Part shown: positions 7,059-33,436 of the stretch, in pieces
Numbering within the stretch: the stretch's first letter is position 1
How the letters are laid out: each line of letters begins with the position of its first letter
Virus record (IMG/VR): IMGVR_UViG_2609460332_000008
Source: a virus
Taxonomy: Duplodnaviria > Heunggongvirae > Uroviricota > Caudoviricetes
Reading direction: 5' to 3' (one strand)
DNA: 64,000 nucleotides
Made by a program: the position numbers and the translations under genes
Notes under the pieces: model-generated
The model's input: only the letters and a program-made list of their open reading frames with translations
The model's database searches: none
Told to the model about the DNA's origin: nothing

Positions 7059-8122
7059 GTTGCCACCGCCTTTGCTGATTTCTTCGTCTTCGCTTTCATT
7101 TCCGGCATATCCAGTGATTCAGGCGGAACCAGCGCCAGAACCGTCATCCTCCCCTGTGCGCCATCCGTCCAGGTCACCCCGGATATCAGCCAGGTGGTTT
7201 TCAGGTTCTGAATGCTGTCGTCGATATCGACAAGGCGGTTGGTCTGCCACAGCGGGCCGCTGTCGCCCTGTTCGCGCCAGCCTGCCACCGTGATTTCCGT
7301 CGTGCGGGATTCCCCCAGCATCCGGGCTTTGTACCATTCTCCGCGAATGCTGGCACCGCCCACGGTCAGACTGTCTTCATTGACCAGAATGCGCGGGCGG
7401 TAACGGTTAATTTCCAGGTCTTCGGTGATGTACTGGCGACCGCCCACCATCGAGGCAGGCTGGCTGTCCCACAGTTTGCCACCGGCACTGGTGGTGCCCT
7501 TGATGATGTACTGGCTGTTACGCTCCCGCCAGCTGAAGCGCCCACGGGCGGCGAGGATATTTTTTCCCAGCACCAGTGACACACCCGCGCGAACGGAAGA
7601 GGCGCGGGTGATAATCAGGTTACCTGCGCCGTCAGACGTCAGCAGAACGCCGCGCTGTTTTGCCAGCCGGTCGAGCAGTTCAAAACCCGTTTCACCCTGT
7701 TCCAGAACGACAGACGCAAACGCCTCCCCGGTCGGGGTTTCCGTAATGACGGTTATCCCGAACGGGCAGCAGACATCAGCCGCCACCTGTTCAATCCGCA
7801 CGCCTTTCCATTTCCCGGACGAATGCACCACAGAGCAGTCAACCAGGTCACCGGTTTTGTCGCGTCCCATGACGCGAATCTCCACGTTATCTGCGTCATA
7901 GCTGGGGATAAAATCATCGATATACCCCGTCAGCACGGTATCCGCGCCCAGCCTGACCGTGCAGGGTTGCCCCTCACGAATCACGCGCGGTGCCGCCGCC
8001 GACCAGCGGGTTGTCACACTGAGATCAAACTCACCGGCAATCGCCTTCAGGGAACGGCTGATGGACATTTCCGTCCAGCCTTCCCACAGTTTGCCGTCAA
8101 CGGTAAGAATCACGGATTCCAT
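7049..8122 (-). CDS. Baseplate hub / late control D-like protein (Mu gp44)
   Basis: 357 aa, downstream of the DNA circularisation gene. Confidence 0.65.
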   Translation of the reverse strand: MESVILTVDGKLWEGWTEMSISRSLKAIAGEFDLSVTTRWSAAAPRVIREGQPCTVRLGADTVLTGYIDDFIPSYDADNVEIRVMGRDKTGDLVDCSVVHSSGKWKGVRIEQVAADVCCPFGITVITETPTGEAFASVVLEQGETGFELLDRLAKQRGVLLTSDGAGNLIITRASSVRAGVSLVLGKNILAARGRFSWRERNSQYIIKGTTSAGGKLWDSQPASMVGGRQYITEDLEINRYRPRILVNEDSLTVGGASIRGEWYKARMLGESRTTEITVAGWREQGDSGPLWQTNRLVDIDDSIQNLKTTWLISGVTWTDGAQGRMTVLALVPPESLDMPEMKAKTKKSAKAVATWD

Positions 8123-9396
8123 CAGTCGGTAATCTCCACAGGTTGCGTTGGCAGGATGAATGACGGATGGCGCAGGCGGTTACGCTGCACGATTTCATCC
8201 CGTCGGCTGGTGTCACCATGCTCGCGCCATGCCAGCAATGCGGCAGATGTGGTTGTGGTCAGCGTCACCTGCCGGGTTTCCGGCAGACGGGCGGCACGCT
8301 TGCGGGCATCCGTAATCACGGCCTGCCGTAAATCGCGCAGCGTTCGCCACAATGCCCGCTGGTTATTTTCCACCGCCGCCACCGCCTGCTCATGCAGTTC
8401 AGCCGCCAGCGTGTCACCGGCAGATAACGCCGCATCACTGGTATCGAACGTCATCGAGGCCACGGCATTTGCCTGTCCCAGCAGGGTTTCCAGCACAACC
8501 ACCTGGCGGAAGTCGTCAATGTTCTTCTGCAGGCTGTCAGATACCGGCTGATAATCCGGTGACAGCCCGATAGCAAAGCCAATTTCGCCGTCTGCCACGC
8601 TGCCGGGCTTCACGGTGATATCTTCCGGCAGTGCGCCGGTGGCAACCTGTCGGGCGCGTTCTCCGGCCCACTGGTTGCGTAATGTCGTGTAAACTGCCAG
8701 TGCTTCGGGTGGTTCCGTCACCAGATCAACCACGCCGTCGATGAACGAGGACAACTCACTGACCAGACGCCCCGGCGTGGCAATGATGGTTCCGGCCATC
8801 TCCTTAAAATGGTTCAGCCTGTCCATCCACTGATTCAGTGCCGTCGGTAACGTGGGCAGGTTGGCCACAAGGTTTTCCATATCGGCCAGAAAGCTGTCGG
8901 CCATCTCACCCAGCCCGTCAGGTGCACCGAACCAGTTGCCATCGTCAATGGCCGCTTTTACCGCATCAATGCCCGTCAGCACTTCCTGCTGCGTGTTATC
9001 CGCCGCAGACGGGAACAGACGCTCGCCTGCCTCAAACACTTCAAATGTGACATACGCAATGCCATCTTCCTCCGTGCTGAGGCGATGGGTGACCTTGCCA
9101 ACCTGTACGGTCTGTATCCCGAACCACGGGTGGATAAGCTCACCGGGACCGGGGGTATTAAGCGCGTCTAAAAGGGCGTTTAAATCATCCTGGAAGTTTT
9201 TACCTGGCAGCTTTGCGTTAATCTGCTGTTGCCCCGGAACGGCCCCGTTATCATCCGTCCAGGCAGTTTCGCGCCGGGGATACGCACGGGGAATGGCACG
9301 ACGGCCACCGGTGCCTTCCGTATCCACCAGAAAGAAAGGGACGCCACGAAACGAGGCGTCGCGCAGCCCGTCCCATTTGCCTTTGCTCGTTGTCAT
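8122..9396 (-). CDS. DNA circularisation protein (Mu N/gp43-like)
   Basis: 424 aa immediately after the tape measure gene. Confidence 0.65.
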   Translation of the reverse strand: MTTSKGKWDGLRDASFRGVPFFLVDTEGTGGRRAIPRAYPRRETAWTDDNGAVPGQQQINAKLPGKNFQDDLNALLDALNTPGPGELIHPWFGIQTVQVGKVTHRLSTEEDGIAYVTFEVFEAGERLFPSAADNTQQEVLTGIDAVKAAIDDGNWFGAPDGLGEMADSFLADMENLVANLPTLPTALNQWMDRLNHFKEMAGTIIATPGRLVSELSSFIDGVVDLVTEPPEALAVYTTLRNQWAGERARQVATGALPEDITVKPGSVADGEIGFAIGLSPDYQPVSDSLQKNIDDFRQVVVLETLLGQANAVASMTFDTSDAALSAGDTLAAELHEQAVAAVENNQRALWRTLRDLRQAVITDARKRAARLPETRQVTLTTTTSAALLAWREHGDTSRRDEIVQRNRLRHPSFILPTQPVEITD

Positions 9397-24718: not shown

Positions 24719-25315
24719 TCACCCCCGCGTGGCGGACATGATGCCCAGAGGGGTATCGATGATTTCCAGACAGGCGTCGGTCAGTTTTTCCATGCGGTTA
24801 AACCAGCCGTTCAGGTATTTACCCTGGGCGGGTTTTGACTTGATGATGTCGGCATAAAAGCGGGAACGACGGACAATGCAGCGGGCCAGCAACCAGTCCG
24901 GGGTGAACAGACTCACGGCCTTACGGGTACGTGGGCCGATGATGCCGTCAGCATCCACATCAGCGGCTTCCTGCAAAATTTTGATGGCTTTTTTAACGCC
25001 ATGCTGAACCGCTGCATCGAACACAAACATCGCCACGCCATCAGGCCACTGGTCACATCCGGCAGGCAGCCAGTAATCGCGCCAGTAAATCTGCGCGACC
25101 TGTTCGCGGGTTAAATCCTTAATGCGGGTATCCGGTTTGCCGTCGCCGTTGACATCGGTTTTGCCGTCAATCACACCGTCGCGGCGGTCAGAAATGCCGT
25201 ATTTGGTTTCGCCGCCACGGTCAGTGGGGTCATTGACATAGACGCCTTCGATATCGGGACGCAGAATGAAATTCAGCGCATGCTCAAAGGCCGGGGAGAA
25301 TTTTTGATTTTCCAT
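24719..25315 (-). CDS. Endolysin, GH108-type muramidase with peptidoglycan-binding domain
   Basis: ...DPTDRGGETKYGIS... N-terminal motif typical of GH108 followed by a PG-binding-like region. Confidence 0.7.
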   Translation of the reverse strand: MENQKFSPAFEHALNFILRPDIEGVYVNDPTDRGGETKYGISDRRDGVIDGKTDVNGDGKPDTRIKDLTREQVAQIYWRDYWLPAGCDQWPDGVAMFVFDAAVQHGVKKAIKILQEAADVDADGIIGPRTRKAVSLFTPDWLLARCIVRRSRFYADIIKSKPAQGKYLNGWFNRMEKLTDACLEIIDTPLGIMSATRG

Positions 25316-25370
25316 AAAAGCACCTGTGAAGCAGATTTAAACGTGGTCTGCTTCATGGTGCCGGAGGCAT

Positions 25371-25396
25371 AAAAAAAGCCGGATTTACCGGCTTCA
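25371..25396 (-). promoter_or_regulatory. Dyad element, copy 2, about 60 bp upstream of the endolysin gene and just after mor
   Basis: Identical to 17636..17661; minus strand reads AAGCCGGTAAATCCGGCTTTTTTT. Confidence 0.6.
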
Positions 25397-25400
25397 TTGA

Positions 25401-25850
25401 TTAAGGGCGTCGTGGCGGACGACGAACGGGGTGAGGCAGGTTCGGGGAGGGGTAAAACAAATCCGGCTGGTATTTATTGCGCTCCAGACGTCGCATCCGT
25501 TTGATGGCCTTGTAGACGGTTTTATACGTCACCCCGTAACGCTGAACCAGTTCAGGAATATTATGGCCGTTAAAATCACGCCAGATACGCATATCCCGGA
25601 CAAGATTCTCCAGAATATTCCCCCTCGGAACATAAACCTGCATCCCGCCGATATGGCGACAAATCGCCACAACCAGCTCAAGGGAATGGGCAGGGTCTGC
25701 ACCAATCCGGGCCAGTTCTTTACGCAGCAGTGCGTTCAGTTCAGAAAGTAACGCCGGATAAGCGGTGTTTTCCTGGTAATCATGAAGATATTCCAGAACG
25801 CTGTCGTCCCGAAGGTCTTCGAATAAATCCTGCTCTTTCATCTGTTTCAT
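25401..25850 (-). CDS. mor: Mor/C-family transcription activator
   Basis: Matches the Mor/C family as I recall it (DLFEDLRDD..., ...GVTYKTVYKAIKRMRRL... HTH); sits directly after gemA. Confidence 0.8.
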   Translation of the reverse strand: MKQMKEQDLFEDLRDDSVLEYLHDYQENTAYPALLSELNALLRKELARIGADPAHSLELVVAICRHIGGMQVYVPRGNILENLVRDMRIWRDFNGHNIPELVQRYGVTYKTVYKAIKRMRRLERNKYQPDLFYPSPNLPHPVRRPPRRP

Positions 25851-26398
25851 ACAGCAATTCTCCCGCTGTTTCGTGCGCGGGCATACGCACTGGTCAGTGC
25901 ATCATAGCCGCGCAGCTCCCGCCCGGTTTCGCTCACAGGTAAAGGCACACCATGTCGGGCAAAGGCTTCCCGGATGCAGCGCATATGCCACTGTTTGAGC
26001 GTTTCGAGCACAATCTGCAACGATTCCCCGTGACACCATGCCAGCGTGGAAACACCCTGACCGCCATTACGTCTGGCCGTCAGGCGTTCAACGTATTTGT
26101 CCAGCGCGGCGTCGCTGATATCGGAAACGAAACCATCAAGGAACATCTGCTGCCAGATTTTGTAAATCTTCTCGCGCGGTGTGACATGCCCCTTAAAGCG
26201 ACGGCGGGGATGTTTTTTCTGCTTCTTAAAACCGCGCTCTTTCATGGCATCGAGCACCTGTTCCAGTTGTGCGACAGTCAGCTCGCGGCAACTGGTCTTG
26301 CCTGTGCACTGCACCAGAAAGGCGCGGTAAGTGTCATCGTCGAGTTGTAGATCACGACGGGCGACATGAATTAATTTAATCAGGGATGTGCGATTCAT
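25847..26398 (-). CDS. gemA: GemA-like protein (Mu gp16)
   Basis: GGAGG RBS before the ATG at 26398; position before mor. Confidence 0.65.
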   Translation of the reverse strand: MNRTSLIKLIHVARRDLQLDDDTYRAFLVQCTGKTSCRELTVAQLEQVLDAMKERGFKKQKKHPRRRFKGHVTPREKIYKIWQQMFLDGFVSDISDAALDKYVERLTARRNGGQGVSTLAWCHGESLQIVLETLKQWHMRCIREAFARHGVPLPVSETGRELRGYDALTSAYARARNSGRIAV

Positions 26399-26471
26399 TA
26401 TCGTACCTCCAGAAAAGGGGGCGGTGCGGCAACACCGCCAGAATCCACTCACTAAACAGAGGAAGCTTTTT

Positions 26472-26738
26472 ATGAAAAACAGTGAACAACCTTATGATGT
26501 TGCAGGGTATACCATTGCCTCAAGGTTGCTGATACTCCTTGTCAGAAAGGGGCTGATTACCGCAGAGGAAGGAAAAACAATCCTCAAATCCGCTGCAGTC
26601 GTAGCTGCAGAGGCTCCGGTATTGAGAACAACGAATGATTCCGCCCTGCAAATATCGCAGCTAATCACTGAAACCATCAGTTTGTTAGACCAAGATCCTG
26701 ATGAATATCAAAAGCCTCAGCCATCTGAGCATCCGTAA
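26472..26738 (+). CDS. Hypothetical 88-aa protein on the opposite strand to the surrounding operon; AT-rich
   Basis: GAGGA RBS 9 nt before the ATG; rare codons; 3' end overlaps the convergent gene 26677..26991 by ~60 bp. Confidence 0.45.
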   Translation: MKNSEQPYDVAGYTIASRLLILLVRKGLITAEEGKTILKSAAVVAAEAPVLRTTNDSALQISQLITETISLLDQDPDEYQKPQPSEHP

Positions 26739-26991
26739 GAATATCTTTATTTGATAGCCCCAGCCTGCGACGAATGTATTCCTCGCGGGCTGCTTCATTT
26801 TGTAGCGCCACGGCAGCTTCCACCTGGTTCATTTCACGGTTAATAATGCTCCGGACTTCTCTGGCGGTGAGGTCATGCTCAATACCATATTTAACGATAT
26901 CGTGCATACGTTCCAGCATCTTTAAATTAGCCATGACGCCATCAATATCAACTGGTGTGAATTTCATTTCTTTATTCTCTGGTTTATTCAT
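26677..26991 (-). CDS. Hypothetical 104-aa helical protein, AT-rich accessory gene
   Basis: GAGG RBS before the ATG at 26991. Confidence 0.5.
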   Translation of the reverse strand: MNKPENKEMKFTPVDIDGVMANLKMLERMHDIVKYGIEHDLTAREVRSIINREMNQVEAAVALQNEAAREEYIRRRLGLSNKDILTDAQMAEAFDIHQDLGLTN

Positions 26992-27166
26992 TTCGTAATA
27001 CCTCTTCGCAATAAAAGATTTCACTGGGATAACGTTTTTGTATGCGCTCCATCACCTGCATACATGCCTGTTCTGTGGGCCAGATTTTTTCCGTTACCGG
27101 AATGGCATCGCAGGCATCATTCCCACAGGTGCCAACCAGCAGGACAAAGCCAATTGACTTAATCAT
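26984..27166 (-). CDS. Small Cys-containing protein with hydrophobic N-terminus
   Basis: 60 aa, four Cys; start overlaps the upstream stop (ATGATTAA). Confidence 0.45.
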   Translation of the reverse strand: MIKSIGFVLLVGTCGNDACDAIPVTEKIWPTEQACMQVMERIQKRYPSEIFYCEEVLRNE

Positions 27167-27698
27167 GCTCGCTGATTTCCTGTGTTTCCGCCGGAACCGG
27201 TGAATAATCAAGAATGAGATAGCGCAGGACGTGGTCGGTGATATTCCAGCCACTGGAACCACAAATAAAGCGCCCCAGCCGGATATCGATATACGCCATC
27301 ACAAAACGGGGCATCCCCTGTTTGCACATCTCGTCATCCACTTCAGCAACGATGTAAACCGACTCGCAGGTCAGTACGCCTGTCGCAAATTCTTTTGCCA
27401 GTGCCGGAATTGCATTGCCTTCCAGCCAGGGCAAAGAGCGGCGGAACGCACACCATTGAGCATCATCAACAGCGGGGTGCTCCGTTGCGTTTCGTCTTAC
27501 AGGAGGCGTCGGACGAGGGCGCGGAACATCATAAAATCCGTTGCATTCTGTCAGCATTCCGGCATCAACCGCATCACGCAGGAAATACACCATTGACGAG
27601 GGAGGCATCTTCATTTTTTCAGCCAGAACGCCACAGGTCAGACGCCCGTAAGCCCGTAATAATGTGCTGACACCGTTCAGAACTTTTGCATCAACCAT
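27159..27698 (-). CDS. Hypothetical protein with helix-turn-helix-like N-terminus and Pro-rich linker
   Basis: AAGGA RBS; 179 aa; preceded by a 98-bp AT-rich gap after gam. Confidence 0.55.
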   Translation of the reverse strand: MVDAKVLNGVSTLLRAYGRLTCGVLAEKMKMPPSSMVYFLRDAVDAGMLTECNGFYDVPRPRPTPPVRRNATEHPAVDDAQWCAFRRSLPWLEGNAIPALAKEFATGVLTCESVYIVAEVDDEMCKQGMPRFVMAYIDIRLGRFICGSSGWNITDHVLRYLILDYSPVPAETQEISEHD

Positions 27699-27796: not shown

Positions 27797-28321
27797 TTAA
27801 ATACCGGCTTCCTGTTCAAACGGAATAATAGAAAAATCTTCAATGCCCGATTTAACTGTAATTCCGGCAACACCTGCGACCGCTTTCGGTTCCAGTAAAA
27901 TCGCTTCCTTGTTGATTTCCTGTTTCGTGCGAATAAAACGTTGCAGGCCAAGACGCTCCAGCGTTTCCATCACCGCATCCACACCGCGAATACTTACCGA
28001 TGGCGGGCGCTGACGCCATGACACATCGCCGGTTACCAGGTTTGCCGTCTTCACCTTGCCACCGTTCGTCAGTTCGTCGCGGTTCGCTTCACACCATCCC
28101 TGAACGCCTTTTGAAAGGGTTTCAATACTGGTTTTAAGTGGCGCAATCTGTGAGGCGTATTTCTCCGTAATATCAGCGATAGCGTCATTCATTTCCGTTT
28201 CAAGTCGTGCTGCTTCGCGTTGCAGGTCCCCAATCCGGCGGATATCACATACCACGGCATCGCGGGATTGCGGAACATAAGCCGCTGCGGCGTTCTTGAT
28301 TCGTTTTGCTGGTTTAGCCAT
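27797..28321 (-). CDS. gam: Gam, host-nuclease inhibitor (Ku-like DNA end binding)
   Basis: Near-identical to Mu Gam as recalled (MAKPAKRIK...VKTANLVTGDVSWR...FIRTKQEINKEAILLEPKAVAGVAGITVKSGIEDFSIIPFEQEAGI). Confidence 0.9.
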   Translation of the reverse strand: MAKPAKRIKNAAAAYVPQSRDAVVCDIRRIGDLQREAARLETEMNDAIADITEKYASQIAPLKTSIETLSKGVQGWCEANRDELTNGGKVKTANLVTGDVSWRQRPPSVSIRGVDAVMETLERLGLQRFIRTKQEINKEAILLEPKAVAGVAGITVKSGIEDFSIIPFEQEAGI

Positions 28322-29480: not shown

Positions 29481-30419
29481 TTACGTGCGCAGCAGGGTTG
29501 AAATATCAACGTCCAGGTCTAATTCACGGAAAGCCTGACGCAGATAATCTTCATTAACACGTTCACCTTTGCCGTGGGCAGTCATGGCCGCAAGGCGCAG
29601 CGAGTGGTTCAGGATGCGAAGCGCACCTGGTTTTTGTGCAATCTGCTGTAATAATTCCCGCTCGTTTTCGCCGGTAATTTGCCAGGCATCCGCAATGGCT
29701 TTTACATCGTCAATTTTTGTTTTATTAATTGCCGTCCGCTTTGCAATACGGGAAAACAGGCGGGCAAATTCAACTGTTCTGTTACCACCGGTCATGTTTG
29801 AATAAACACGGTGATTCCCCATCAGAACAAGGCCAATACGGGCGGATTCCTGCAACAGGCGGAGTTCTTCCAGAACTTCAGCGCCAAGATGATCAGCTTC
29901 GTCGATAATGACCAGCCCCTGCGTACCTTCAAGGCGGCGTCGCAAAGCGCGGGAGAGCGGCCCTTTGCGGCGCGGTGCGTCATTCATTCCCAGTTCATAA
30001 GCCAGTTCAGTGAGACATTCCAGAACACTGGCGCAGGATGGGGTAATGGTGATCATCCAAACATTGTTATTGGTGCGACGAAATTCGCGGGCTGCTTCAG
30101 TTTTTCCCACACCTGGATTACCGCAGATAACAGAAATACTTTCAGTCAGACTGGCAAAACGCATACTCGTCCAGATTTGGCGTGCTGTTCTGGTTTCCAC
30201 AAAACGCGGTGGTTCTGGCAGCTCTGCGGCACGGTGATAGTTCTCCAGCCAGCGTTCCAGCGTCTGCGCAACACGTTCATTGTCGCCGTTGTACTTGTTA
30301 TTCACGAATGCGCTTAACGTTCCTGCGGCCACGCCGGACTCGCGGGCAATTTGTGCATAAGTGGCTTTTTCACTTTCTACAAGCGTGCGCAGTCCTGCGC
30401 GAATATCGGAAATATTCAT
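29481..30419 (-). CDS. B: MuB, ATP-dependent target-DNA activator
   Basis: 312 aa with Walker A GNPGVGKT; immediately after the transposase gene. Confidence 0.9.
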
Positions 30420-32845: not shown

Positions 32846-33436
32846 TTGAAAAGTAACTTTATAGAATCTGGTGATACTGAAAAGTCAATCTGGTGTACGC
32901 CGCAAGAAATTATGGCTGCTGATGGTATGCCTGGATCTGTTGCAGGTGTTCACTATCGGGCAAATGTTCAAGGCTGGACAAAGCGAAAAAAGGAAGGTGT
33001 GAAGGGGGGTAAAGCAGTTGAATACGATGTGATGTCTATGCCCACCAAAGAACGAGAGCAAGTTATTGCACACCTAGGTCTGTCTATTCCTGGCACTGCT
33101 GCTCAAGCTAATGAGCAGCAGGATTCTTCGGAGCTGATAAACAAATTAACCACAACCTTAATCAATATGATTGAAGAACTGGAACCAGATGAAGCACGTA
33201 AGGCACTGAAACTATTAAGCAAAGGTGGGCTACTGGCGTTAATGCCACTTGTATTTAATGAACAGAAACTTTACAGCTTTATAGGATTTTCACAGCAAAG
33301 TATCCAGACGTTGATGATGCTAGATGCATTACCTGAAGAAAAACGCAAAGAGATTTTGTCAAAGTATGGGATTAATGAACAGGAGAGTCTTGTAGCTCCT
33401 TTGCAGGATCCACAAGATGTAAAAAAAGCCGTATAA
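32846..33436 (+). CDS. c: Mu-type repressor c
   Basis: 196 aa, divergent from ner/A/B as in Mu. Confidence 0.85.
   Translation: MKSNFIESGDTEKSIWCTPQEIMAADGMPGSVAGVHYRANVQGWTKRKKEGVKGGKAVEYDVMSMPTKEREQVIAHLGLSIPGTAAQANEQQDSSELINKLTTTLINMIEELEPDEARKALKLLSKGGLLALMPLVFNEQKLYSFIGFSQQSIQTLMMLDALPEEKRKEILSKYGINEQESLVAPLQDPQDVKKAV

What the first reader, a model, noticed from the sequence alone, without database searches (positions are those of the whole stretch)
26472..26991. AT-rich convergent gene pair in the early region, one gene on the opposite strand
Nearly every gene in the element is on the minus strand, but an 88-aa ORF with a good RBS reads on the plus strand, overlapping the 3' end of a minus-strand 104-aa gene by about 60 bp. 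Both are AT-richer with rare codons, and a short GC hairpin (GGCGGTG...CACCGCC) sits just upstream of the gemA RBS. Small variable genes at this position in transposable phages are typical sites for host-takeover, anti-defence or exclusion functions, and convergent overlap suggests antisense coupling.
Basis: inference. Interest (0 to 1): 0.55.

Follow-up and report, generated by a model that had tools for sequence, protein, structure and literature searches.

The report
Mu gp15 reverse-strand gene, real
The plus-strand 88-codon reading frame is a genuine, conserved small gene, the counterpart of phage Mu gp15, which sits backwards inside the early operon of a Mu-like prophage with its own ribosome site and terminator; it was already annotated as a hypothetical protein and its function is still unknown.

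Summary
An 88-codon plus-strand ORF (26472-26738, AGGA 8 nt upstream) converges on a 104-codon minus-strand gene (26677-26991) with a 62-bp overlap. A GC hairpin (26420-26439) lies upstream of the gemA ribosome site.

The pair are homologues of phage Mu gp15 (Mup15, 53% aa) and gp14/E15 (71%). They are already annotated as hypothetical proteins in RefSeq.

New points from this work:
- The gp15 frame is the only one of six frames open in all six diverged lineages. The forward-strand Mu_54 that replaced it in GenBank AF083977 is interrupted elsewhere.
- D108 carries an unannotated 119-aa version.
- A hairpin with a U-tract on the gp15 strand, with compensatory changes, sits inside gp14 just after the gp15 stop. 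It looks like a dedicated one-way terminator.
- gp15 is cleanly deleted in a few phages and is a local divergence hot spot.
- gp15 and the repressor are the only two genes on that strand of the prophage.

No promoter could be defined. No domain, fold or defence-family match gives a function.

My best reading is a self-contained accessory gene, probably expressed when early transcription is off. That last part is inference. AT-richness and rare codons are not distinctive. Interest is low to moderate.

The parts
26472..26738 (+). gp15-like CDS, 88 aa (homologue of phage Mu Mup15). It has an N-terminal conserved helical core and a variable acidic/proline tail. The last 62 nt overlap gp14.
   Evidence: phrog_8747 E 6e-26 over the full length. 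53% aa identity to Mu 7902-8162c. It is the only frame open in six lineages. dN/dS is 0.14-0.39. AF2 pLDDT is 76.5.
26458..26465 (+). Ribosome-binding site of gp15 (AGAGGAAG; AGGA 8 nt before the ATG).
   Evidence: A purine-rich SD is present at the equivalent place in Mu, the Salmonella L009 lineage, L045, L055 and D108.
26761..26805 (+). Terminator-like hairpin (stem 26761-26792) followed by CUUCAUUUUGUAG on the gp15-sense strand. It is embedded in the gp14 codons for AREEYIRRRLG. No U-tract follows it on the early-operon strand.
   Evidence: Folds (z -2.0 to -3.4). It is conserved in all six lineages, with 92.6% of cells paired against 37-54% in slid controls and 3 pairs with compensatory double changes. 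The D108 version is a 13-bp stem followed by UUUUUUGUUAU.
26677..26991 (-). gp14/E15-like CDS, 104 aa, part of the early operon. Predicted as three long helices.
   Evidence: phrog_6075 E 2e-42. 71% identity to Mu gp14. AF2 pLDDT is 74.6. No PDB match.
26420..26439 (.). GC hairpin GGCGGTG/CACCGCC between gp15 and gemA. On the minus (early) strand it is followed by CCCCUUUUCU and then the gemA GGAGG. The stem is invariant and the loop variable in every lineage, including phages that lack gp15.
   Evidence: It lies within the stretch annotated in Mu AF083977 as the 'semi-early promoter'.
25847..26398 (-). gemA (gp16 family), divergent neighbour of gp15. The start codons are 73 nt apart.
   Evidence: PF06252 GemA on the homologue in L009.

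Best explanation
The plus-strand ORF is a real protein-coding gene, the orthologue of phage Mu gp15 (Mup15). Together with its Shine-Dalgarno site and a one-way intrinsic terminator hidden in the 3' part of gp14, it forms a self-contained, backwards-facing monocistronic unit. This unit is wedged into the only long gap of the early operon, between gp14/E15 and gemA.

The product is a small soluble three-helix protein. It has a conserved N-terminal alpha-hairpin with a sub-threshold SHOCT-like motif (LLVRKGLITAEEGKTIL) and a variable, probably disordered tail that is overprinted on the end of gp14. I infer that it acts by binding another protein rather than as an enzyme or a membrane protein.

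It shares its strand only with the repressor, converges on the Pe-driven early transcript, and is dispensable and fast-evolving. For these reasons I think it is most likely made when early transcription is off or low, that is in the lysogen or very early in infection, and is shut down by convergent early transcription after induction. That would make it a prophage accessory function.

Shown: it is coding, conserved and syntenic, has an RBS and a terminator-like hairpin, and is dispensable. Inferred: the timing of expression, the mode of action and the biological role.
For: Coding:
- Only the gp15 frame is open in all six lineages, at about 40% nucleotide divergence.
- Random placement of the observed substitutions keeps the frame open in only 14-17% of trials per lineage pair.
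- The gp15 frame beats the Mu_54 frame on dN/dS (0.14-0.39 against 0.20-0.48) and on BLOSUM sums (158-180 against 107-131).
- At least 17 distinct alleles are intact with fixed lengths.
- PHROG 8747 matches over the full length. PGAP and RefSeq call the gene in KFu019, SfMu and NC_000929.

Synteny: the gene is always between gp14 and gemA, always on the opposite strand, always overlaps the 3' end of gp14 by 20-62 nt, and its start codon is 70-73 nt from the gemA start codon where both were located.

Terminator: a hairpin plus U-tract lies on the gp15 strand in all lineages, with compensatory changes.

Accessory and fast-evolving:
- A clean 225-bp deletion occurs in vB_YpM_3 and L039.
- An IS insertion occurs in L013.
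- The gp15-specific segment is 9.3% divergent against 0.4-2.3% in its flanks between two near-identical prophages, p 1.5e-7.

Strand: the repressor is the only other gene on that strand.

Fold: AF2 gives a confident small helical protein. A hand-computed Kyte-Doolittle mean of about 0.8 for residues 8-26 argues against a transmembrane helix.
Against: - No convincing sigma-70 promoter was found for gp15. The consensus scan found none. My weighted scan gave only weak candidates that are not positionally conserved, the best being TTAATC-17-TATCGT at 26376-26404.
- There are no expression data of any kind.
- No domain, fold or defence-library match exists, so the mode of action is a guess.
- The terminator stem lies in the most conserved gp14 codons, so part of its conservation is due to the protein.
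- The family is tiny and restricted to E. coli, Salmonella and Shigella Mu-type phages, so the comparative depth is limited.
Confidence: 0.6

Rival explanations
1. gp15 is a lytic-phase host-takeover or anti-defence protein. It would be made soon after infection or induction from a promoter that works despite, or before, convergent Pe transcription.
For: It lies in the semi-essential early region, where the known host-directed functions (kil, gam, gemA) sit (for the region's content; the rest is general knowledge). It is small, fast-evolving and dispensable, as many anti-defence genes are.
Against: Its orientation is opposite to every lytic gene. A gene needed early in lytic growth would more simply sit in the operon. 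There is no similarity to any known anti-defence or defence family. No promoter was identified.
Confidence: 0.2
2. The main function is at the RNA or transcription level. Leftward transcription across the gp14-gemA junction would interfere with the early transcript or with the gemA promoter whose annotated position overlaps the gp15 start. It could do so by collision, antisense pairing or RNase III cleavage, setting how much gemA-mor is made and thus the timing of middle transcription. The peptide would be secondary.
For: The convergent overlap and the fixed 70-73-nt divergent spacing from gemA are conserved. The Mu record places a 'semi-early promoter' for gemA over the gp15 start, RBS and hairpin. 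Candidate gemA-sense -10 and -35 elements recur near the same place in five lineages, with the -35 over the gp15 start codon in the window. The gem operon is reported to be expressed in lysogens (cited in PMC3820752).
Against: Selection at the protein level shows that the peptide matters. The terminator restricts the antisense overlap. Phages with gp15 deleted (vB_YpM_3) were isolated as infective phages and keep gemA-mor.
Confidence: 0.13
3. The plus-strand ORF is a shadow ORF. The real gene is the forward-strand Mu_54-type ORF (61 codons here, 26492-26677 minus strand), as in the updated GenBank record of Mu.
For: AF083977.1 annotates Mu_54 and not gp15. The Mu_54 frame shares wobble positions with gp15, so codon periodicity cannot separate them. 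An ATG lies at or next to the gp14 stop in the window and in Mu.
Against: The Mu_54 frame has 1-3 stops in every lineage. Its longest open stretch is only 30-40 codons in the Salmonella, L045 and L055 lineages, at differing positions. It has no PHROG or Pfam hit. Its translations are less conserved. The best-conserved stretch (QPYDVAGY) lies partly outside Mu_54 in Mu.
Confidence: 0.04
4. gp14 and gp15 form a functional pair, for example a toxin-antitoxin-like or mutually regulating module, with the convergent overlap coupling their expression.
For: In every intact gp15 locus examined, gp15 lies directly next to a gp14-type gene, and the two families diverge in parallel lineages.
Against: gp14 occurs without gp15 (vB_YpM_3, L039). 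Linkage alone explains the co-divergence. There are no TA or defence hits. gp15 is not a small hydrophobic type I toxin. In L013 an IS separates the two genes without loss of either.
Confidence: 0.08

Closest known systems
Phage Mu gp15 (Mup15, NP_050619, NC_000929 7896..8162 complement); PHROG 8747
   Same: Same length (88 aa), 53% identity over the full length. Same position between gp14 and gemA, same opposite orientation, same 62-bp overlap with gp14.
   Different: It is a diverged allele, the third or fourth lineage of six. Nothing is known about the function of Mu gp15. The current GenBank Mu record (AF083977.1) no longer annotates it.
Phage Mu gp14 (formerly E15); PHROG 6075
   Same: 71% identity, same position and strand. 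The conserved core IINRE...AREEYIRRRLGL is present.
   Different: Four extra N-terminal residues. Function unknown.
Morons / lysogeny-expressed accessory genes of temperate phages (for example lambda rex, lom, bor; the olg1/gene 10 exclusion genes next to the repressor of the Pseudomonas transposable phage Fc02, PMC9936078)
   Same: A small autonomous unit set against the lytic operon, with its own terminator. Present or absent among close relatives, fast-evolving, and on the same strand as the repressor.
   Different: No promoter was identified and no expression or phenotype data exist. Its composition is not clearly foreign. It is widespread within Muvirus rather than sporadic. It is not homologous to any of those genes.
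SHOCT / SHOCT-like domains (Pfam PF22746, PF20612)
   Same: The motif L-x-x-L-V-x-K-G-[LI]-I-[TS]-x-E-E-x-x-x-I forms an alpha-hairpin. Weak hits occur in 5 of 9 family members.
   Different: All scores are below the gathering threshold (16 against 27 bits). Here the motif is N-terminal and central rather than a short C-terminal appendage.

Membership tests
Mu gp15 family (PHROG 8747 / Mup15) | Full-length sequence similarity to family members | tested here: met
   phrog_8747 E 6.2e-26, residues 1-86 of 88. tblastn to Mu gives 52.9% identity and 99% coverage, E 1e-21.
Mu gp15 family (PHROG 8747 / Mup15) | Position between gp14/E15 and gemA, on the strand opposite to the early operon, overlapping the 3' end of gp14 | tested here: met
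Mu gp15 family (PHROG 8747 / Mup15) | Known biochemical or biological function | not testable with these tools
   None is described in the papers searched.
Mu gp14 (E15) family (PHROG 6075) | Full-length sequence similarity and position upstream of gemA in the early operon | tested here: met
   phrog_6075 E 2.4e-42. 71% identity to Mu gp14. Synteny.
SHOCT / SHOCT-like domain (Pfam PF22746, PF20612) | Score at or above the Pfam gathering threshold | tested here: not met
   16.0 bits against a cutoff of 27. The best family member reaches E 0.0014; 5 of 9 members give weak hits.
Rho-independent (intrinsic) terminator, for 26761-26805 plus strand | GC-rich stem-loop directly followed by a U-rich tract on the transcribed strand, downstream of a stop codon | tested here: met
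   A 10-13-bp stem with a U-tract in six lineages, 22-50 nt after the gp15 stop. No U-tract on the other strand.
Rho-independent (intrinsic) terminator, for 26761-26805 plus strand | Structure maintained by compensatory change | tested here: met
   3 pairs changed on both sides. 92.6% paired against 37-54% when slid. 2-7 of 500 shuffles reach the observed values. The sample is small (9 distinct rows).
Rho-independent (intrinsic) terminator, for 26761-26805 plus strand | Transcripts actually end there | not testable with these tools
   Needs Term-seq or 3'-RACE.
Moron (autonomous accessory unit in a prophage) | Own promoter | tested here: inconclusive
   No consensus match. Only weak, non-conserved candidates.
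Moron (autonomous accessory unit in a prophage) | Own terminator | tested here: met
Moron (autonomous accessory unit in a prophage) | Present or absent among close relatives | tested here: met
   Clean deletion in vB_YpM_3 and L039.
Moron (autonomous accessory unit in a prophage) | Composition distinct from its neighbours | tested here: inconclusive
   GC is 0.45 against 0.51-0.55 for gemA/mor, but equal to other small early genes.
Moron (autonomous accessory unit in a prophage) | Expressed in the lysogen | not testable with these tools
   No transcript data available.
Known anti-phage defence or toxin-antitoxin proteins (PADLOC-DB) | Significant match to a defence-system profile | tested here: not met
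   No hit for gp15 (three lineages). gp14 gives only E 0.018 at 12 bits to PRTase_III-A.
Known RNA families (Rfam 15) | Covariance-model match in 26000-27300 | tested here: not met
   No match up to E = 1.

The most novel reading that the evidence does not exclude
gp15 is the second lysogeny-strand gene of Mu-type phages. It would be expressed from the prophage, switched off by convergent Pe transcription, and would either protect the lysogen (superinfection exclusion or defence) or, through its overlapping divergent promoter and antisense transcript, gate read-through into gemA-mor. In the latter case it would form a previously unrecognised checkpoint between early and middle transcription of the paradigm transposable phage. 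It could correspond to one of the classical early-region functions never assigned to an ORF (arm, cim, sot). That last link comes from my own recollection of the older Mu literature and was not tested.
Probability: 0.12. Interest if true: 0.6.

Novelty: new member of a known kind. Interest (0 to 1): 0.3.

Why it matters
Mu is the reference transposable phage, and its two public annotations disagree about this locus. The comparative evidence here says that the reverse-strand gene (gp15) is the one under selection. It also shows that D108 has an unannotated copy and that the gene carries its own terminator inside gp14.

Apart from the repressor, gp15 is the only gene that faces against the whole lytic programme. 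It sits immediately upstream of gemA-mor, the gateway to middle transcription. A simple genetic test, a start-codon mutation in a stretch that is non-coding on the early-operon strand, could therefore reveal either a lysogen-expressed accessory function or a regulatory role.

For the window itself the finding is ordinary: a correctly annotated hypothetical protein of a known, uncharacterised family.

Tried and rejected
- Function by homology failed. Pfam, PHROGs, NCBIfam and PADLOC gave nothing beyond unknown-function phage families and sub-threshold SHOCT-like hits. A profile search against PDB sequences gave nothing below E 0.17.
- The exhaustive HMMER search found only 5 true relatives at the 50% cluster level. 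One further hit was spurious, a repeat-rich surface protein.
- The scan of GTDB species representatives found nothing.
- Rfam gave no match.
- Promoter search failed. The consensus scan found none. My weighted scan gave no positionally conserved gp15-sense promoter, and the candidates ending 14-16 nt before the ATG would cut off the Shine-Dalgarno site, so I rejected them.
- A transmembrane reading of helix 1 was rejected. The hand-computed hydropathy mean is about 0.8, and charged residues sit inside the helix at varying positions.
- The toxin-antitoxin reading was rejected as the main explanation, because gp14 occurs without gp15 and there are no hits.
- Literature: nothing on gp15 or Mup15 function in the held library. 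The paper cited for the Mu semi-early promoter (PMID 9454718) is not held.
- Codon periodicity cannot discriminate gp15 from Mu_54, because the two frames share wobble positions. I used ORF integrity and amino-acid-level conservation instead.

Full report
**What the window is.** The 900 bp around the finding are 100% identical to the chromosome of E. coli KFu019 and 96-99.9% identical to about 27 other complete E. coli genomes. The element is a Mu-type prophage spanning roughly window 250-33500, between ltnD and ygbI. Its genome reads on the minus strand:
- transposase A and B (B at 29481-30419)
- Gam (27797-28321)
- a gp11-like gene (27159-27698)
- a 60-aa gene (26984-27166)
- the 104-aa gene of the finding (26677-26991)
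- gemA (25847-26398)
- mor (25401-25850)
- a GH108 lysin (24719-25315), followed by the late genes

**The observation.**
- The plus-strand ORF runs from ATG 26472 to the stop at 26738 (88 aa). AGAGGAAG lies at 26458-26465.
- The minus-strand gene is 26677-26991, and the overlap is 62 bp.
- The hairpin GGCGGTG-CGGCAA-CACCGCC is at 26420-26439, 9 nt from the gemA GGAGG. It forms in the MFE and centroid folds and was flagged as terminator-like on the minus strand, where the tail is CCCTTTTCTG.
- In the PGAP annotation of the identical prophage, only two genes of 53 lie on the plus strand: this ORF and the repressor at 32846-33436.

Two details are weaker than stated.
- GC of the pair is 0.45 and 0.43. 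That is lower than gemA/mor (0.51-0.55) but the same as several other small early genes (0.43-0.48) and higher than the repressor (0.41).
- The rare-codon fraction (8% and 6%) is within the prophage range of 1-13%.

An antisense ORF of 88 codons also means nothing by itself. Longer ones of 121-168 codons lie opposite gemA, the gp11-like gene and B.

**Identity.** The region aligns at 76% nucleotide identity with phage Mu 7657-8322.
- The minus-strand gene is the homologue of Mu gp14, formerly E15 (71% aa; phrog_6075, E 2e-42).
- The plus-strand ORF is the homologue of Mu gp15 (53% aa over 87 of 88 residues; phrog_8747, E 6e-26).
- RefSeq NC_000929 annotates Mup15 on the complement strand at 7896..8162. 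The 1991 left-end record already listed an opposite-strand 'F-134' ORF there.
- The updated GenBank record AF083977.1 has no gp15. It annotates instead a 55-codon forward-strand 'Mu_54' at 7960..8127, plus a 'semi-early promoter' (8151..8217) upstream of gemA.

So the first question is which strand codes.

**Which strand codes.** I collected the locus from six diverged lineages:
- the window type (KFu019; RIVM_C019217)
- Mu/SfMu
- a Salmonella/E. coli type (L009-L013)
- the type inserted in Stx1 phage JNE122137 (L045-L054)
- L055/L056
- D108

The evidence is as follows.
- The gp15 frame is the only one of six frames without a stop in all lineages. The three best-aligned lineages differ at 76-84 of 201 sites.
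- The Mu_54 frame carries 1-3 stops in every lineage. Its longest open stretch ranges from 60 codons down to 30, at different places.
- The Mu_54 frame shares third-codon positions with gp15. It is a classic shadow frame, and codon periodicity cannot tell the two apart.
- At the amino-acid level gp15 wins in every inter-lineage comparison. dN/dS is 0.14-0.39 against 0.20-0.48. Identity is 48-52% against 42-48%. BLOSUM62 sums are 158-180 against 107-131.
- Placing the observed number of changes at random keeps the gp15 frame open in only 14-17% of trials per lineage pair.
- Seventeen distinct alleles found in the loci are all intact, with lineage-specific fixed lengths of 88, 86, 79, 79 and 119 aa. 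The one exception is interrupted by an IS256-family transposase.
- A purine-rich Shine-Dalgarno sequence precedes the ATG in every lineage.

I conclude with high confidence that gp15 is the gene and that Mu_54 is its shadow. D108's record leaves a 376-bp 'gap' between gene 14 and gemA. That gap holds an unannotated 119-aa gp15-type ORF on the reverse strand.

**Anatomy of the unit.**
- *Spacing.* In the six lineages where both start codons were located, the gp15 start codon lies 70-73 nt from the gemA start codon in divergent orientation. The invariant GC stem lies between them, with variable loops CGGCAA, CTGCAA, TGACAG and TTACCG.
- *Overlap.* The gp15 3' end overlaps the gp14 3' end by 20-62 nt, depending on lineage.
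- *Terminator.* Twenty-two to fifty nucleotides after the gp15 stop, inside the gp14 codons for the conserved AREEYIRRRLG motif, lies a 10-13-bp hairpin. It is followed by a U-rich tract on the gp15-sense strand only.
  - The tail reads CUUCAUUUUGUAG in the window, UUUUUGGUUGU in L009, UUUUUUGUUAUCC in L055 and UUUUUUGUUAUG in D108.
  - The D108 gp14 protein differs here (KKAHNNIVCRELG), yet the hairpin persists with a different stem.
  - Across nine distinct sequences, 92.6% of pair cells are standard pairs, against 37-54% when the partner is slid. Three pairs show changes on both sides.
  - The simple scan missed it because its 12-nt nominal loop exceeds the scan's 8-nt limit. In the fold the loop closes further with a short inner stem.
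  - TransTermHP flagged the same hairpin in the Mu record.
  - I read it as a one-way intrinsic terminator. It would end the leftward gp15 transcript after about 125 nt of antisense overlap with gp14, while letting the rightward early transcript pass.
- *GC hairpin.* The hairpin upstream of gemA is followed on the early strand by a short T-run in every lineage (3-8 T). That fits a weak terminator or attenuator, or a 5' stabiliser, in front of gemA-mor. Its stem never varies, so covariation cannot be tested.
- *gemA promoter.* Candidate gemA-sense promoter elements recur just upstream of that hairpin. In the window the -35 would overlap the gp15 start codon. This agrees with the 'semi-early promoter' span in the Mu record and with reports that the gem operon is expressed in lysogens (cited in PMC3820752). 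I could not read the primary paper.
- *gp15 promoter.* I found no convincing promoter for gp15 itself. This is the main gap.

**Dispensability and evolution.**
- vB_YpM_3, its sibling vB_YpM_23 (as judged by the same two-piece alignment, not inspected directly) and an IMG/VR contig (L039) lack the gene. In vB_YpM_3, the only one aligned, the gap runs from a few bases after the GC hairpin to the gp14 stop codon (window about 26451-26675). gp14, the hairpin and gemA are left 51-55 nt apart. These are infective phages (PMC10434027, listed), so gp15 is not essential.
- Between the window and a prophage that is otherwise 97-99.6% identical, the gp15-specific 205 nt differ at 9.3% of sites. The flanks differ at 0.4-2.3% (Fisher p 1.5e-7). 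Twelve of the 19 changes fall at codon positions 1-2, and they cluster in 26573-26672.
- The gene is therefore a local hot spot, through either allele exchange or diversifying selection.
- The family is tiny. It has five true representatives at the 50% cluster level among 1.8 billion proteins. All named members come from E. coli, Salmonella or Shigella and are called 'hypothetical'.

**The proteins.**
- *gp15.* AlphaFold2 gives gp15 a mean pLDDT of 76.5. The model has a short N-terminal strand, helices at 10-25, 31-47 and 61-73, and a low-confidence acidic, proline-rich tail.
  - The conserved core is Y-D-V-A-G-Y-x-[IV]-A-S-x-L-x-x-L-L-V-x-K-x-[IL]-I-T-x-x-E-G-x-x-I.
  - It gives weak SHOCT-like Pfam hits in five of nine members, all below threshold.
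  - By my hand-computed hydropathy estimate it is not a membrane protein.
- *gp14.* It is predicted as three long helices (pLDDT 74.6) and has no structural match.
- Neither protein hits PADLOC, NCBIfam or PDB sequences. Rfam finds nothing in the interval.

**How it most likely works.**
- *Shown:* a conserved, translatable, dispensable, fast-evolving small gene with its own RBS and terminator, set against the early operon in the only long gap of that operon.
- *Inferred:* convergent transcription from the strong early promoter should suppress it after induction, and its only strand-mate is the repressor. It is therefore most plausibly made in the lysogen, or before early transcription becomes heavy, as a small protein-binding accessory factor.

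I put the gene itself at above 0.9, the autonomous terminated unit at about 0.7, lysogen-biased expression at about 0.4, and any specific role (exclusion, defence, host modulation or control of gemA-mor) at no more than 0.2 each. The rivals are a lytic anti-defence gene, a mainly RNA-level regulator of gemA-mor, the Mu_54 reading, and a gp14-gp15 module. They are listed with their tests.

**Comparison with the known, and novelty.** This is a member of the Mu gp15 and gp14 families, both annotated but uncharacterised. In design it resembles a moron or a lysogeny-strand accessory gene. The overlapping exclusion genes next to the repressor of the Pseudomonas transposable phage Fc02 are one example (PMC9936078), but there is no homology and no expression evidence here. 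I did not file it under SHOCT, defence or TA families because the tests were not met. As a finding in this window it is a new member of a known kind.

The useful by-products are at annotation level:
- gp15 rather than Mu_54 in Mu
- an unannotated copy in D108
- a dedicated terminator inside gp14
- the divergence hot spot

**Verdict.** The function is unknown. Interest is 0.3.

Noticed in passing
Phage Mu AF083977.1 7896-8162 (L001 1661-1927) against NC_000929.1: The two public Mu annotations disagree. RefSeq has reverse-strand Mup15, while the updated GenBank record has forward-strand Mu_54 (7960..8127). Comparative data favour Mup15.
   Followed up: yes
L059 584-943 minus strand (D108 GQ357916, about 7853-8212): There is an unannotated 119-aa reverse-strand gp15-type ORF in the 376-bp 'gap' between D108 gene 14 and gemA. 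It has its own SD and a very good terminator hairpin (13-bp stem followed by UUUUUUGUUAU).
   Followed up: yes
L005 (vB_YpM_3) 891-941; L039: In vB_YpM_3 a clean deletion of about 225 bp removes exactly the gp15 RBS and the non-overlapping part of the ORF, leaving gp14 and gemA 51-55 nt apart. L039 shows the same 55-nt spacing and retains only the last 20 gp15 codons.
   Followed up: yes
L013 4236-5444; L051/L052 about 2480: An IS256-family transposase is inserted in the 3' end of gp15 in a Salmonella Aberdeen prophage. In two IMG/VR contigs the first ~20 codons of the gp15-type ORF are replaced by unrelated sequence.
   Followed up: partly
window 26573-26672 against L006 (RIVM_C019217): The gp15-specific segment is 9.3% divergent, against 0.4-2.3% in the flanks, between two otherwise near-identical prophages. 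dN/dS is about 0.7.
   Followed up: partly
L009/L010 3052-3387 plus strand: In the Salmonella-type lineage a second reverse-strand gene (111 aa, no Pfam hit) sits between a 63-aa gene downstream of gemA and gemA itself. It is absent from the sister loci L011/L012.
   Followed up: no
window 24719-25850: In this prophage mor is followed directly by a GH108-type lysin. No separate C-type late activator or Mu E18-E20 homologues are annotated between mor and the lysis genes, unlike in Mu.
   Followed up: no
window 26984-27166 minus strand: The 60-aa gene upstream of gp14 (phrog_16556) is not a homologue of the cysteine-rich Mu gp13 that occupies this place in Mu, L045 and L055.
   Followed up: no
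window 27066-27090 plus strand: A second terminator-like site on the plus strand (GCCTGTTCTGTGGGC followed by CAGATTTTTT) lies antisense to the 60-aa gene, about 330 nt downstream of the gp15 stop.
   Followed up: no
P0011 (154 aa): One gp14 homologue is fused at its C-terminus to about 55 extra basic residues that carry a Pfam PF25680 hit. This is probably a local rearrangement.
   Followed up: no
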